DNA of 60,304 bases, taken from Streptomyces virus StarPlatinum (Duplodnaviria > Heunggongvirae > Uroviricota > Caudoviricetes). Positions 1,354-19,406 of this stretch are shown in pieces (the stretch's first letter is position 1; each line of letters begins with the position of its first letter). The notes below the pieces were generated by a model. That model worked only from the letters and a program-made list of their open reading frames with translations, was not told the origin of the DNA and did not search any database. The stretch spans positions 1 to 60,304 of the IMG/VR virus record IMGVR_UViG_2974628900_000001. One strand, given 5' to 3'. A program made the translations under genes and the position numbers.

Positions 1354-2355
1354 TCAGGCAGCCAGGGAGTAACCCAGGACAACCTTACGGATCTTGTTCT
1401 TCTCGGTGTTGGTGACCGGGTCGAATCCGGAAGCGGCGGCGAACAGGTTGTCCACCTCACCCTTACGCGGCATACGGTACCAGTCCTTGAACTCGGTGAA
1501 GGCATTCAGCGCACCGGCCATGGTACCGGCCAGAGACTGAGTGGTCTTGGGACCGTCGCCCGTGTCAGTGAAGATGCCCATGTGAAGATCGCGCTTGTTG
1601 TCCCACTTGACCTGGGACCCCTTGACGTTCTCCTTCGGACGCTCACCGTAGATCGCAGCGAACATCTCATCGAACTTGTCCTTCGTGCACTGCACGCGGA
1701 ACAGCTCGTTCATCTCACGCTCGAACTCGTCGGCGTAAGCGAAGGTGATGTTCAGTGCCTCACGCGCGGCAGCCATGCGACCCTCGATGGTCTGAGTGTG
1801 GCGCATCTTGAAACTCTGCTTCACACCGTTACGGAGTGCGAAGTTCAGGGTGTTCTGACACACGACACGGACCGGAGTGACGCTCGCCTGCACCGCGAGA
1901 GAACCGTCATGGGAGGTGTTCACGAGCAGATACATGTTCGTGACATCGTCGTCGCCCACCAGCACCTCACGACCGATGCGCAGAGATCCGAAGACCTGCG
2001 TACCGTCCTTGATAGAACCGGCAGTCTCCCACGTTCCACCACCCGCGAGGATGCCGTCACCGAAGGCGAACAGTTCCTCATTCTGGACGACCTTATACCG
2101 CTCCGCGACGATACCAAGGCTGTCAGCCTCACCATCGAACGGGTTGGTACGGATCACCTCGAAGGCACTCTTCTTGGTGCGACCCTTACGCTCCAGCAGC
2201 TCCAGCCGAACGTTCCAGTCGGAGAGGTGGGCGAGTCGCAGCATCTCAGAGGTGGTGAGTTCCCCGTCAAAGACGGTGCCAAGCTGGTGCCACGCGGGCT
2301 CCAGACGAGAGGCGAACGCGACCTGACCACGGGAACCGATTTCGAGACCGTGCAT
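1354..2355 (-). CDS. DUF932 family phage/plasmid-like protein
   Basis: WHQLG...LSDWNV, YKVVQNEELF, AGSIKDG, NSHDGS-like NTSHDGSLA and TPVRVVCQNTL motifs. ATG 2355 follows an AGGAG RBS. Confidence 0.85.
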   Translation of the reverse strand: MHGLEIGSRGQVAFASRLEPAWHQLGTVFDGELTTSEMLRLAHLSDWNVRLELLERKGRTKKSAFEVIRTNPFDGEADSLGIVAERYKVVQNEELFAFGDGILAGGGTWETAGSIKDGTQVFGSLRIGREVLVGDDDVTNMYLLVNTSHDGSLAVQASVTPVRVVCQNTLNFALRNGVKQSFKMRHTQTIEGRMAAAREALNITFAYADEFEREMNELFRVQCTKDKFDEMFAAIYGERPKENVKGSQVKWDNKRDLHMGIFTDTGDGPKTTQSLAGTMAGALNAFTEFKDWYRMPRKGEVDNLFAAASGFDPVTNTEKNKIRKVVLGYSLAA

Positions 2356-17549: not shown

Positions 17550-17714
17550 TCAGTCAAGCACAGAAACGTACTTAACGATTTGCACGTTCTTTGCACCATC
17601 GTCTTCAAGGATGGACTTTTCAACACGAGCCTGACGCATTGGATAAAGAGCATCGGTCTCGTACATCTTGCCATCTAGTTCGTACTTGAGGTAGTAGCGA
17701 TCTACGTTGATCAT
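17550..17714 (-). CDS. Small protein, 54 aa (MINVDRYYLKYELDG...), not in ORF track
   Basis: GAAAGGA RBS; start overlaps the upstream stop. Confidence 0.7.
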   Translation of the reverse strand: MINVDRYYLKYELDGKMYETDALYPMRQARVEKSILEDDGAKNVQIVKYVSVLD

Positions 17715-17875
17715 CACTTTTCCTTTCGGTGATTGACTTTGAAATCTGTGATTCCGACCTTCTTTAGATGAACAGATAGTTCATCTAGCTCTTTCAGAGA
17801 ATTGACAGTCTTTAGCTGCTTCTTCCCCTTATTGTCAGTGTAAGTGACTATCCAGTAACCCTTTTCTTTACCCAT
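17714..17875 (-). CDS. Small basic protein, 53 aa (MGKEKGYWIVTYTDNKG...), not in ORF track
   Basis: TAAGGA RBS. Confidence 0.7.
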   Translation of the reverse strand: MGKEKGYWIVTYTDNKGKKQLKTVNSLKELDELSVHLKKVGITDFKVNHRKEK

Positions 17876-18234
17876 TAGGTTCCTTATCAATAGACAAATC
17901 TATATCCCCCCCCCAGCGTGCCCTAAGTGATAATCACTTGCTGCTGAGTCATCTCACTGTTACTTCAAGGGCCTCGCAGTCACACGCACCTTGAACTCTG
18001 GTTCCGGTCAACACCGGTTCTTTTCTTTAAGCCTTACAGGTAGTGGAGTGTAGAAAAGAGGGTAGAAAAGGACACATGTCTTCCCAGAAACAGTGACATC
18101 TGAAAGGATTCCACTACCCCGGCTCTCTTGGCATTAGTCTGAGCCGTACCTCCTGCTTCGCGCCTTTTCCCTTGGGGCTAGTTTCGGTATTTTTTCAACC
18201 GCAGACACGAGAGTTTCCTAAACTCTTGGAGGAC

Positions 18235-18316
18235 AAAAAAGACCCTCCGGAAGGCTGGGACCAATCCGGAGGGTCTAGTGAAATTGACCACGATGTTGGT
18301 CCCAGCAACATCTTGT
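18235..18316 (-). ncRNA. Candidate ~82-nt small RNA with two hairpins whose loops are complementary
   Basis: TTGACA-17-TATCTT promoter (18323-18351). Hairpin GAUGUUG-CUGGGAC-CAACAUC. Terminator GACCCUCCGGA-UUGGUCCCAGCCU-UCCGGAGGGUC-U6. Confidence 0.65.
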
Positions 18317-18437
18317 ATCAACAAGATATCACGTCCGCCAACATGTGTCAAGCTAGGGTTGATGTTGAGCAATAGCCCAACCAACTGATATAATCGTAAC
18401 ACAGCTCAAAGAGCATGTCAACGACGAAAGGACAGCA

Positions 18438-19406
18438 GTGGACATCAGTTTTTCCACTATCCCTGGCAATCTTAACACAACCATCGGTTATGGAGTCGCC
18501 GGGTTCAACATGGTTAGAAGTCTGCAAAAGCTAGGACACAGAGTCCCATTCGCAGACAAGAATTGCAAGATCGAGATCTTCTTCTCACAGCCAGATTACT
18601 GGGAGTGGTCTAACCAACTAGGTTATCATATCGGATACACTCCATGGGAGTCAACCCAATTGCCACCGGGCTGGCTTGAGCAGATGAACTGTGCAGATGA
18701 GGTCTGGACCACTAGTGATCTTATTCAGCGATGGTACACACGGGCCGGTGTGAAGAATGTTAAAGTTTATCCACATGGCATTGATCCACAGTGGACTCCG
18801 AAGAAGCGCAAGGTCTATACAAAGATGAAGTTCCTTCACATGGGAGAGCCTGCACCTCGAAAGGGTGGACAGATGGCTCTTGACGCATTCCGTGCTGCAT
18901 TCGGAGACAGAGACGATGTAGAACTAACGATCAAGGCGCACCGCATCAATTCAGTACGCCGGATAAACTCTGGAAGGATCGTAGGGTCCCCCGATGAGTA
19001 CAGCAATGTCAAGCTAGTCACCAAGGAGCTTCCAGAAGACCTTCTTGTGGGCTTTGTACAGCAGCACCACGTAATGGTTTATCCAAGTTGGGGAGAAGGC
19101 TTCGGTCTTATTCCTTTTCAGGCTATCGCCACTGGAATGCCAACTATCTGCACAGCCAAGTGGGCTCAGTACAAGGATTATCTTGGTCCTCTCGGCCTGT
19201 CATCAACATTGACAGATTCACCATGGCCCGGTGTTCATCCAGGAAAGATGCTCAAGCCTGACTTCGATGAACTTGTAGATCTGTACAGATATGCATACGA
19301 CAACTTCTCTGATTTGAGCAACAGATTCTACGCTCAGGCACCTCTTTTGCACGCTGAGTACAACTGGGAAAGCCTCACTAAGCAAGCGTTTAGTCACTTG
19401 ATTTAA
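18438..19406 (+). CDS. Glycosyltransferase (GT-B / GT4-like)
   Basis: GYTPWE, KVYPHGID, RKGG, EGFGLIPFQAIATGMPTI motifs. Upstream TTGAGC-18-TATAAT promoter. Confidence 0.9.
   Translation: MDISFSTIPGNLNTTIGYGVAGFNMVRSLQKLGHRVPFADKNCKIEIFFSQPDYWEWSNQLGYHIGYTPWESTQLPPGWLEQMNCADEVWTTSDLIQRWYTRAGVKNVKVYPHGIDPQWTPKKRKVYTKMKFLHMGEPAPRKGGQMALDAFRAAFGDRDDVELTIKAHRINSVRRINSGRIVGSPDEYSNVKLVTKELPEDLLVGFVQQHHVMVYPSWGEGFGLIPFQAIATGMPTICTAKWAQYKDYLGPLGLSSTLTDSPWPGVHPGKMLKPDFDELVDLYRYAYDNFSDLSNRFYAQAPLLHAEYNWESLTKQAFSHLI

What the first reader, a model, noticed from the sequence alone, without database searches (positions are those of the whole stretch)
18235..18351. 82-nt RNA with two hairpins whose loops are exact complements
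Seen: a consensus promoter (TTGACA-17-TATCTT) and a U6 terminator enclose hairpin 1 (loop CUGGGAC) and the terminator hairpin (13-nt loop containing GUCCCAG). Complementarity extends to 11 nt (GCUGGGACCAA/UUGGUCCCAGC). There is no ORF inside. Inference, three options: an intramolecular kissing-loop or pseudoknot acting as a protein decoy; hand-in-hand oligomers reminiscent of phi29 pRNA; or an attenuator controlling read-through into 17.5-18.2 kb.
Basis: partly seen in the sequence, partly recalled or inferred. Interest (0 to 1): 0.8.

Follow-up and report, generated by a model that had tools for sequence, protein, structure and literature searches.

The report
Phage small RNA with self-pairing loops
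Large Streptomyces phages make a roughly 82-base early RNA whose first hairpin loop base-pairs with the loop of its own terminator hairpin. Relatives keep this pairing with at least 13 different letter combinations, so it is a real, undescribed folded RNA that most likely gates transcription into the next genes.

Summary
TTGACA-17-TATCTT (18351-18323) is followed by hairpin 1 (18312-18292, loop CUGGGAC) and then a 12-bp terminator (18276-18240, 13-nt loop holding GUCCCAG, then U6). The two loops are complementary over 11 nt.

The window is a cluster-BE Streptomyces phage (134 kb, direct terminal repeats). All 27 relatives examined keep a perfect complement of at least 7 nt between the two sites, in 13 different sequence versions. 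Cognate pairs average 8.5 nt; non-cognate pairs average 3.8 nt. The spacing between the sites varies from 32 to 50 nt, and G-U pairs occur only in the minus-strand sense. The pairing is therefore in RNA, not DNA.

No Rfam family matches and I found no paper describing it. The 'tRNA-Arg' annotated at this spot in phage EGole is a false call.

The function is inferred. The linker is about as long as, or shorter than, the stacked helices, and no promoter follows the terminator. [quoted passage not shown] A free-standing or dimeric small RNA remains a serious rival. A phi29 pRNA-like role is not supported.

This scan had already found the same family on other phage genomes.

The parts
18393..18421 (-). 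P1, the upstream leftward promoter: TTGACA (18421-18416), 17-bp spacer, TACGAT (18398-18393). Predicted start near 18386.
   Evidence: Found by the promoter scan. Nearly invariant in the relatives.
18365..18394 (+). Rightward promoter-like site TTGAGC-18-TATAAT for the glycosyltransferase/RNR operon. Its -10 box overlaps the -10 box of P1 on the other strand.
   Evidence: The same arrangement is present in NootNoot.
18364..18381 (-). H0, a 7-bp hairpin at the 5' end of P1 transcripts.
   Evidence: Pair 12-17 of the alignment shows GC in 5 sequences and CG in 4, a compensated change.
18323..18351 (-). P2, the promoter of the small RNA: TTGACA, 17-bp spacer with an extended TGn, then TATCTT.
   Evidence: A -35 of TTGAC-type and a -10 of TAnnnT preceded by TGn are kept in all 27 relatives.
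18310..18327 (-). H0b, a hairpin whose 5' arm is the P2 -10 box. It can therefore exist only in P1-derived RNA. It overlaps the base of hairpin 1 by 3 nt.
   Evidence: 89% of cells are paired, and loop length varies from 2 to 9 nt between phages.
18235..18316 (-). Predicted P2 transcript of about 82 nt. The start is inferred to lie about 7 nt after the -10 box; the end is in the U-tract.
   Evidence: Inferred. No RNA data could be obtained.
18292..18312 (-). Hairpin 1: a 7-bp stem with the 7-nt loop X = CUGGGAC (18305-18299).
   Evidence: The stem is 100% paired in 11 sequences, with G-U and double changes.
18277..18291 (-). A 15-nt linker between the two hairpins.
   Evidence: Its length is 7-24 nt in relatives, and the long linkers fold into a middle hairpin.
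18240..18276 (-). Terminator hairpin: a 12-bp G+C-rich stem with a 13-nt loop (18264-18252) that carries X' = GUCCCAG (18261-18255).
18235..18240 (-). U6 tract of the terminator. The first U pairs with A18276.
   Evidence: The run of T is on the minus strand only.
17867..18234 (-). ORF-free stretch between the terminator and the first leftward gene. It has no sigma-70-like promoter, holds a G9 run at 17907-17915, and is alignable only with one soil viral contig (L012).
17550..17890 (-). Two small conserved genes, homologues of LukeCage gp42 (about 50 aa) and gp41 (55 aa). They are the first cargo downstream of the terminator. The next promoter-like site is at 17530-17502.
   Evidence: 88% and 87% identity to LukeCage.

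Best explanation
This is a conserved, unannotated RNA module in the divergent control region of cluster-BE Streptomyces phages.

Shown:
- A host-type promoter (P2), lying inside the leader of a second invariant promoter (P1), drives about 82 nt made of hairpin 1, a short linker and an intrinsic terminator hairpin.
- The loop of hairpin 1 (X) and the loop of the terminator hairpin (X') pair by 7-11 G+C-rich Watson-Crick pairs.

Inferred mechanism:
- The linker is only about as long as the stacked helices it would have to span. The kiss and a fully zipped terminator (with hairpin 1 also closed) therefore strain each other, as proposed and measured for the guanidine-IV riboswitch.
- X' emerges before the 3' arm of the terminator, so the kiss forms first. 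It then biases whether the basal terminator pairs close.
- This divides transcripts between an ~82-nt terminated RNA and read-through into the ~370-nt leader and the two small genes behind it, which have no promoter of their own.
- There is no conserved ligand pocket. The variable input is therefore most likely the availability of X: an alternative long hairpin in P1-derived RNA, or competition from finished copies of the RNA.

The direction of the effect (more or less termination) is not known.
For: The pairing is real.
- 27 of 27 relatives keep a perfect complement of at least 7 nt, in 13 distinct versions.
- Cognate pairs average 8.5 nt and -17.5 kcal/mol; non-cognate pairs average 3.8 nt and -8.7 kcal/mol.
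- In the kissing helix, 4 of 7 pairs show changes on both sides, and 0 of 500 shuffles reach the observed whole-structure covariation measures.

It is RNA on the minus strand.
- G-U pairs occur in the stems, and the run of T is on one strand only.
- Spacing between X and X' is 32-50 nt, not phased with the DNA helix.

Promoter and terminator are conserved in all relatives.

Cis context.
- No sigma-70-like promoter lies between the terminator and the next genes in the window, NootNoot or Jay2Jay.
- Those genes are conserved.

Geometry.
- A fully stretched linker divided by the stacked length is 0.7-1.25 in 11 of 14 variants examined. One parse (Samisti12) failed.
- The two longest linkers (23-24 nt) fold into a middle hairpin.

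Precedent.
- In guanidine-IV riboswitches a kiss between the first hairpin loop and the terminator-hairpin loop gives antitermination, by steric competition with stem closure (PMC7736828 discussion; PMC11611296).

In the Wofford-type variants the X-X' pairing extends into a nested helix that excludes the X' hairpin.

No third site of 9 nt or more for X or X' exists in the phage genome.
Against: - There is no transcript evidence. Public runs hold only relatives' contigs over the neighbouring gene.
- The terminator looks strong (12 bp, U6). Strain could be relieved by opening the A-U-rich base of hairpin 1 instead, leaving termination unaffected.
- In the Wofford, Daubenski and Naboo types the X' hairpin is followed by a separate strong terminator, so the kiss is not always on the terminating hairpin.
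- The module is combined with at least three unrelated downstream leaders, as expected for an autonomous small-RNA gene.
- Phage-specific promoters that the scan cannot recognise may serve the downstream genes.
- The alternative fold of P1 RNA has only weak covariation, and RNAalifold keeps hairpin 1.
- The distance estimate is crude.
Confidence: 0.45

Rival explanations
1. It is a free-standing early small RNA. The terminator simply ends it, and the loop-loop pairing builds the mature particle. That particle would be a compact self-kissed monomer or, because the linker is short, a closed antiparallel homodimer held by two kisses ('hand in hand'). It would act in trans as a protein-binding RNA or scaffold.
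For: - It has its own consensus promoter and a strong terminator, conserved in 27 of 27 relatives.
- The module is shuffled independently of its neighbours. The glycosyltransferase gene next door is 98-99% identical in LukeCage and Wofford, yet the loop version or even the architecture differs.
- In Naboo and the Wofford type the X' hairpin is not the final terminator.
- A dimer satisfies all helices and both kisses without strain in every variant, including Jay2Jay with its 7-nt linker.
- X and X' have no other partner of 9 nt or more in the phage genome.
Against: - No conserved single-stranded sequence or shape is apparent that a protein could read. Only the complementarity and the hairpin 1 stem are conserved.
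- The genes behind the terminator lack a recognisable promoter.
- No partner protein is known, and Streptomyces lacks Hfq (my own knowledge).
Confidence: 0.3
2. It is a self-addressed antisense feedback loop of the P4 CI or P1 c4 kind. Finished RNAs use their free X' (or X) loop to kiss the matching loop of nascent leaders before the cis partner is transcribed. This flips the terminator decision, and the loop sequence acts as an address that keeps related co-infecting phages orthogonal.
For: - Regulator and target lie in one transcript and covary between relatives, as in P4 (seqB with seqA/seqC; summarised in PMC4825925).
- Thirteen largely orthogonal versions exist.
- Near-identical phages carry different versions.
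- Steric exclusion of the cis kiss in the finished RNA would leave its loops free.
Against: - BE phages are described as lytic (PMC12509530), and no immunity function is known for them.
- The loops vary no faster than the linker, so drift with compensation is enough to explain the variation.
- A proposed third covarying site in the P2 spacer was tested and rejected.
- All kinetics are assumed.
Confidence: 0.15
3. It is a phi29-type packaging RNA (pRNA) analogue that rings the prohead.
For: - The two loops are complementary and covary between phages.
- It is transcribed from an early-type promoter, as pRNA is (PMC4201828 for pRNA kissing loops).
Against: - No match to Rfam Phage_pRNA or any other family.
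- There is no three-way junction; the two hairpins sit on a flexible linker.
- The phage is a 134-kb siphovirus with direct terminal repeats, a portal and a terminase-large-subunit-like ORF.
- The kiss is 7-11 bp, against 2-5 bp in pRNAs.
Confidence: 0.03
4. It is a DNA-level feature. The inverted repeat would be a pair of half-sites for a dimeric DNA-binding protein or a cruciform at an origin, or it would be kept perfect by template-switch repair without any RNA function.
For: - It lies at the point where transcription and GC skew diverge.
- The hairpin 1 stem sequence is conserved and has a third, direct copy in the P2 spacer.
Against: - Centre-to-centre spacing varies from 32 to 50 bp.
- Each arm sits exactly in the loop of its own hairpin.
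- G-U pairs work only in the minus-strand RNA sense.
- The half-site sequence itself is free to change, which no operator model predicts.
- The phage has its own helicase, primase and polymerase.
Confidence: 0.03

Closest known systems
Guanidine-IV (mepA / GGAM-1) riboswitch
   Same: Same layout: a 5' hairpin, a short linker and an intrinsic terminator hairpin, with a kiss between the two loops. In that riboswitch the kiss sterically competes with full closure of the terminator stem and gives read-through (PMC7736828, PMC11611296).
   Different: [quoted passage not shown] Here the loops are free to vary (13 versions) and form 7-11 Watson-Crick pairs with no sign of a ligand site.
- There is no Rfam match here.
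- This element is phage-borne, has its own promoter inside another leader, and its cargo genes are unrelated.
Satellite phage P4 CI RNA (seqB with seqA/seqC) and the P1/P7 c4 RNA
   Same: A short untranslated leader RNA carries both a pairing loop and its complementary target in one transcript. Pairing controls transcription termination, and the pairing sequences differ between relatives while staying complementary (PMC4825925 summarises P4).
   Different: - Those RNAs are cut out of a longer transcript and act in trans in lysogens as immunity factors.
- Here the phages are lytic, the RNA is bounded by a promoter and a terminator, only two sites exist, and both are hairpin loops.
- There is no match to the Rfam C4 family.
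phi29-family packaging RNA (pRNA)
   Same: A phage-encoded small RNA with two loops that are complementary to each other and differ between related phages.
   Different: - pRNA is 120-174 nt, is built on a three-way junction that forbids the cis kiss, pairs by 2-5 bp, and serves a terminase-less packaging motor.
- None of these features holds here.
OxyS-fhlA and ColE1 RNA I-RNA II kissing complexes
   Same: Fully paired 6-7-nt hairpin loops closed by G-C pairs, including use of a terminator loop as a pairing surface (OxyS; discussed in PMC11979758).
   Different: Those are contacts between two different RNAs. Here both partners are in one 82-nt transcript.

Membership tests
phi29-type pRNA (Rfam RF00044) | Sequence and structure match to the curated covariance model | tested here: not met
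   No match in the whole window at gathering score, nor at E up to 10 in 17700-18480. The own-genome search also found nothing, but its controls did not ring.
phi29-type pRNA (Rfam RF00044) | Two mutually complementary loops that covary between phages | tested here: met
   Whether the pairing is between molecules cannot be told from sequence.
phi29-type pRNA (Rfam RF00044) | Three-way-junction scaffold that holds the loops apart | tested here: not met
   Two hairpins are joined by a 7-24-nt linker, with no junction.
phi29-type pRNA (Rfam RF00044) | Host phage packages with a pRNA-dependent motor and lacks a terminase large subunit with nuclease | tested here: not met
   The genome has direct terminal repeats and a 607-aa ORF matching PHROG terminase large subunit families. 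That ORF is negative for three Pfam terminase families.
Guanidine-IV riboswitch | Loop of the first hairpin pairs with the loop of the terminator hairpin | tested here: met
Guanidine-IV riboswitch | Highly conserved loop nucleotides forming the guanidine pocket | tested here: not met
   The loops occur in 13 versions. No Rfam riboswitch family matches.
Guanidine-IV riboswitch | The kiss changes termination efficiency | not testable with these tools
   Only a geometric estimate was possible. It needs in vitro transcription.
P4 CI / P1 c4 leader antisense RNAs (Rfam C4) | Regulator and complementary target in one transcript, covarying between relatives | tested here: met
P4 CI / P1 c4 leader antisense RNAs (Rfam C4) | Match to the curated model; tRNA-like fold processed by RNase P | tested here: not met
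   No Rfam match. ARAGORN finds no tRNA-like gene here in the window. Processing cannot be tested.
P4 CI / P1 c4 leader antisense RNAs (Rfam C4) | Acts in trans as an immunity factor of a temperate element | not testable with these tools
   BE phages are reported as lytic (PMC12509530). Trans action is untested.
Intrinsic (Rho-independent) terminator | G+C-rich stem followed directly by a U-tract on the transcribed strand | tested here: met
   A 12-bp stem and U6. The tool's scan missed it only because the loop exceeds 8 nt. The Jay2Jay homologue is called by the scan.
tRNA (as annotated in phage EGole at the homologous place) | Cloverleaf recognised by tRNA models | tested here: not met
   Rfam tRNA and ARAGORN find nothing at 18235-18351. 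ARAGORN calls a 95-nt 'tRNA-Arg(gcg)' only in EGole, out of 7 loci. Its 'anticodon' is the loop that covaries with the terminator loop, and the call overlaps the P2 -10 region.

The most novel reading that the evidence does not exclude
The loops work as an address. Finished copies of the RNA cannot kiss themselves because the linker is too short, so they kiss each other (forming closed dimers) and kiss nascent leaders of the same address. This flips those leaders' terminator. The result would be an RNA-only, sequence-addressable timer or incompatibility switch in lytic phages, with at least 13 natural, largely orthogonal addresses. [quoted passage not shown]
Probability: 0.15. Interest if true: 0.85.

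Novelty: new variant of a known kind. Interest (0 to 1): 0.62.

Why it matters
- **An unannotated RNA family.** It adds a well-supported structured RNA family to a group of more than 100 sequenced, cultured actinophages in which it is unannotated or mis-annotated. EGole calls it a tRNA, and Bmoc and Elmer annotate hypothetical proteins over or beside it.
- **A general version of a rare layout.** Kissing a terminator's own loop is so far established only for one ligand-dependent riboswitch class. Here it appears ligand-free, strongly paired and freely re-addressable, which points to a more general way of gating terminators.
- **Ready-made controls.** The 13 natural loop versions are compensatory-mutation controls already in hand, and a set of orthogonal kissing pairs for RNA engineering.
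- **Testable now.** The phages and hosts are in teaching-lab collections, so the question can be tested directly.

Tried and rejected
- **Third covarying site (X'') in the P2 spacer that would bury X in P1 transcripts: rejected.** Cognate spacer-X duplexes (-6.4 kcal/mol) are no better than non-cognate ones (-6.2).
- **Long alternative hairpin of P1 RNA: not established.** It pairs the P2 spacer copy of the hairpin 1 5' arm with the hairpin 1 3' arm and is the predicted minimum-energy fold in nearly all of the 27 sequences. However, covariation is weak and it is not the RNAalifold consensus. I keep it only as a possibility.
- **Trans target in the phage genome: none found.** No other match of 9 nt or more to X or X' exists in 134 kb.
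- **RNA evidence: none usable.** Public runs hold only contigs of relatives, covering the glycosyltransferase gene and P1 and not this RNA. That says nothing about expression.
- **Rfam at permissive thresholds: chance-level hits only**.
- **Leader peptide from the AUG in hairpin 1: not conserved** (14, 20 or 38 codons; ribosome-binding site in only some phages).
- **Hammerhead-like CUGAUGA in NootNoot: not conserved.**
- **Y RNA for the phage Ro60 orthologue: unlikely.** There is no terminal stem and no Rfam hit.
- **A first IMG/VR scan with a 14-nt pattern was unspecific and wasted**.
- **Pfam terminase families found nothing in the genome**; PHROGs did find a candidate.

Full report
**What is there.**
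The window is a cluster-BE Streptomyces siphovirus (Stanwilliamsviridae, Boydwoodruffvirinae). The nearest GenBank record is LukeCage, at 96% identity over the flanks. The whole record is 133,886 bp with direct terminal repeats.

The finding lies on the minus strand, in the ~570-bp gene-free region where leftward and rightward transcription diverge.
- Promoter: TTGACA (18351-18346), a 17-bp spacer with an extended TGn, and TATCTT (18328-18323).
- Hairpin 1: 7-bp stem at 18312-18306 with 18298-18292, loop CUGGGAC.
- A 15-nt linker.
- Terminator hairpin: 12-bp stem at 18276-18265 with 18251-18240, a 13-nt loop holding GUCCCAG, then U6.

The 11-nt complement between the two loop regions is exact and unique in the genome. 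The fold is much more stable than shuffles (z = -4.3). A genome-wide scan for hairpin pairs with complementary loops gives 33 candidates of 7 nt or more, against about 6 in shuffles. Only this pair combines 9 nt or more with strong stems and a terminator.

**Is the pairing real?**
In one sequence, a complement of at least 7 nt turns up in about 4% of shuffles, so comparison with relatives decides the matter. I collected the homologous region from 27 sources: GenBank BE1 and BE2 phages, the more distant Naboo (Tomasvirus), IMG/VR isolate records and two soil viral contigs. All 27 keep a perfect Watson-Crick complement of 7-11 nt between the same two places, and the sequence comes in 13 versions:

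| X | X' | Found in |
|---|---|---|
| CUGGGAC | GUCCCAG | window, Samisti12, Tribute |
| CUCCACC | GGUGGAG | LukeCage, Jollison |
| AUGCGAC | GUCGCAU | NootNoot |
| UUGCGAC | GUCGCAA | Braelyn, EGole, Evy |
| CUGCGAC | GUCGCAG | two soil contigs |
| CCGCAAC | GUUGCGG | Bmoc |
| CUGGCCC | GGGCCAG | Yaboi |
| UCGCAC | GUGCGA | Jay2Jay, Targaryen |
| CUGCAC | GUGCAG | Lululemon, Cursive, Pepperwood |
| CUCGCCC | GGGCGAG | L138 (IMG/VR isolate record) |
| CUGCCAC | GUGGCAG | CeilingFan |
| CUGGCGG | CCGCCAG | Wofford type, Naboo |
| CUGGCAG | CUGCCAG | L135 (IMG/VR isolate record) |

- Cognate pairs have a longest complement of 7-11 nt (mean 8.5) and a duplex energy of -17.5 kcal/mol. Non-cognate combinations average 3.8 nt and -8.7 kcal/mol. 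Only the three versions that differ at one position cross-react.
- On an 11-sequence alignment, the kissing helix has changes on both sides at 4 of its 7 pairs. None of 500 shuffles reaches the observed whole-structure covariation. The apparent mismatches in that helix are a one-column register shift in LukeCage and Jollison.

**RNA, not DNA.**
- The distance between the two sites varies from 32 to 50 nt, so it is not phased with the DNA helix.
- Each site sits in the loop of its own hairpin.
- The stems contain G-U pairs that would be A-C mismatches on the other strand.
- Only the minus strand has a promoter in front and a run of U behind.
- The P2 promoter features are kept in all relatives: a TTGAC-type -35, a 17-18-bp spacer and TGnTAnnnT.
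- Linker indels are not multiples of three, and the AUG-initiated frame that starts in hairpin 1 is 14, 20 or 38 codons long in three phages. The element is therefore not coding.

**What it is not.**
- No Rfam family matches, even at E up to 10.
- Full-text searches gave only genome announcements for these phages.
- The 95-nt 'tRNA-Arg' annotated here in EGole is an ARAGORN call made in one of seven loci. It takes hairpin 1 as an anticodon arm and overlaps the P2 -10 region, so it is false.
- The pRNA idea fails three of four defining features: no model match, no three-way junction, and a phage that has direct terminal repeats, a portal and a terminase-large-subunit-like ORF.
- The phage also has its own helicase, primase and polymerase, so a primer-RNA role is not needed.

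**Context.**
- A second, almost invariant promoter (P1: TTGACA-17-TACGAT, 18421-18393) lies 70 bp upstream. Its -10 box overlaps the -10 box of the rightward promoter-like site for the glycosyltransferase/RNR operon. P1 transcripts therefore run through P2 and the same two hairpins.
- In nearly all of the 27 sequences, the predicted minimum-energy fold of P1 RNA pairs a direct copy of the hairpin 1 5' arm (located in the P2 spacer) with the hairpin 1 3' arm. This buries X in a long hairpin.
- Comparative support for that alternative is weak. A putative third covarying site was tested and rejected.
- Downstream of the terminator come ~370 nt without an ORF or a sigma-70-like promoter. Then come two small conserved genes, homologues of LukeCage gp42 and gp41. 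The same lack of a promoter holds in NootNoot and Jay2Jay.
- The module is mosaic. The neighbouring glycosyltransferase is 99% identical in LukeCage and 98% in Wofford. Yet LukeCage has a different loop version and Wofford a different architecture, with X in a 5' single strand and the X' hairpin followed by a second terminator. At least three unrelated downstream leaders occur behind the module.

**How it most likely works.**
The pairing is shown; the rest is inference. I estimated, crudely, the length the linker must span if hairpin 1, the kissing helix and the terminator stem stack end to end, and compared it with the fully stretched linker.
- The ratio is 0.7-1.25 in 11 of 14 variants examined. 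One parse (Samisti12) failed.
- The two variants with 23-24-nt linkers fold them into a middle hairpin.
- Jay2Jay, with a 7-nt linker, cannot make the kiss within one molecule while both hairpins are intact.

So the kiss and the fully closed hairpins compete within one molecule. This is the situation proposed for the guanidine-IV riboswitch. There, a kiss between the first hairpin loop and the terminator-hairpin loop prevents the outer terminator pairs from forming and turns genes on (PMC7736828). Single-molecule work shows the growing terminator stem and the kiss competing through the shortening linker (PMC11611296).

Here the kiss is much stronger and has no conserved pocket, so no small ligand is indicated. 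X' is transcribed before the 3' arm of the terminator, so the kiss should form first. My best reading (about 0.45) is a kissing-loop-gated terminator that divides P1/P2 transcription between an ~82-nt RNA and read-through into gp42/gp41.

Three things remain undetermined:
- The direction of the effect.
- The input, which may be an alternative fold of P1 RNA or finished RNA acting in trans.
- Whether strain is simply absorbed by the A-U-rich base of hairpin 1.

**Rivals.**
- A free-standing small RNA whose mature form is a self-kissed monomer or, more comfortably, a closed antiparallel dimer (0.3). Its autonomy, its shuffling between phages, and the Naboo and Wofford types, where the X' hairpin is not the final terminator, all favour this.
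- A P4 CI / P1 c4-like self-addressed feedback (0.15). This would explain why near-identical phages carry different, orthogonal loop versions. However, the loops vary no faster than the linker, so drift with compensation is enough.
- pRNA-like and DNA-level explanations are each at about 0.03.

**Earlier work of this scan.**
I had established the covariation before looking the notes up. Other windows of this scan had already reported the same family in other BE phages:
- e1-5438994 reports 34 relatives and about 16 versions.
- e1-5435614.
- First-reader notes e1-5417960 and e1-5438654 describe versions that I also found.

Those notes also report an analogous hairpin-loop-to-terminator-loop design in unrelated phage groups (e1-3275132, e1-3398758, e1-3291353). 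I did not check those. Note e1-5435614 gave me the guanidine-IV lead, which I then read in the papers themselves.

**Verdict.**
The RNA loop-loop pairing is as well supported as sequence comparison allows. The family is undescribed in Rfam and in the literature I could search. Its function is still inferred.

Noticed in passing
L008:654-748 (phage EGole, MK494112.1 19296-19390): GenBank annotates a 95-nt 'tRNA-Arg' exactly over the homologous small RNA. ARAGORN reproduces the call only in this one of seven loci. Bmoc gene 39 (a hypothetical protein) overlaps the RNA, and Elmer gene 45 (a hypothetical protein) lies in the same intergenic region. These are probably mis-annotations.
   Followed up: partly
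window 18389-18398: The -10 boxes of the leftward promoter P1 (TACGAT) and the rightward promoter-like site (TATAAT) overlap on opposite strands and are invariant in the relatives. RNA polymerase can probably occupy only one at a time, which would make this a possible left/right switch.
   Followed up: no
L081:1960-2030 (Daubenski); also L135, L015, L146, L148: In the Wofford, Daubenski and Naboo types, the loop of the second terminator is complementary to a conserved element about 35-60 nt further downstream. The complement is 10 nt in Daubenski (UAAGACCCUU with AAGGGUCUUA) and 7 nt in Wofford and Naboo. In LukeCage the X' loop is also complementary over 9 nt to that downstream element. This looks like a second terminator-loop pairing in the same leader.
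   Followed up: partly
window 17867-18234: The stretch behind the terminator has no ORF and no promoter. It has a G9 run (17907-17915) and is alignable only with one soil viral contig (L012). Other relatives carry two other, unrelated leaders here. It may be a further structured RNA (see note e1-5431020).
   Followed up: partly
L152:2943-4571 (G000 81943-83571, outside the window): The phage encodes a Ro60 orthologue (TROVE plus Ro60 vWA domains, E = 4e-61 and 6e-35) next to its tRNA array. No Y RNA reaches the Rfam gathering score anywhere in the genome. A 117-nt 'tRNA' hit at L152:9090-9206 might be worth checking as a YrlA-like partner.
   Followed up: partly
L151:9766-11589 (G000 69766-71589, outside the window): The only terminase-large-subunit candidate lies 45 kb from the portal gene. 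It matches PHROG families only weakly (E = 2e-15) and matches no Pfam family. A separate 603-aa FtsK/SpoIIIE-like protein lies at L151:15392-17203.
   Followed up: partly
window 1371-1461 (repeated at 123058-123148 in the terminal repeat): This is the only other pair of neighbouring hairpins in the genome whose loops share a complement of 9 nt or more (GGACAACCU). The stems are weak and the pair may lie inside an ORF.
   Followed up: no
window 18310-18345: A direct copy of the 5' arm of hairpin 1 lies in the P2 spacer, and a hairpin (H0b) uses the P2 -10 box as one arm. P1-derived and P2-derived RNAs are therefore predicted to fold differently around X.
   Followed up: yes
window 17901-18312: A contig in public run X3 carries this same small-RNA body with no difference between 18233 and 18312. 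Upstream it switches to the LukeCage-type H0b and -10 region, so a recombination joint lies inside the module.
   Followed up: no
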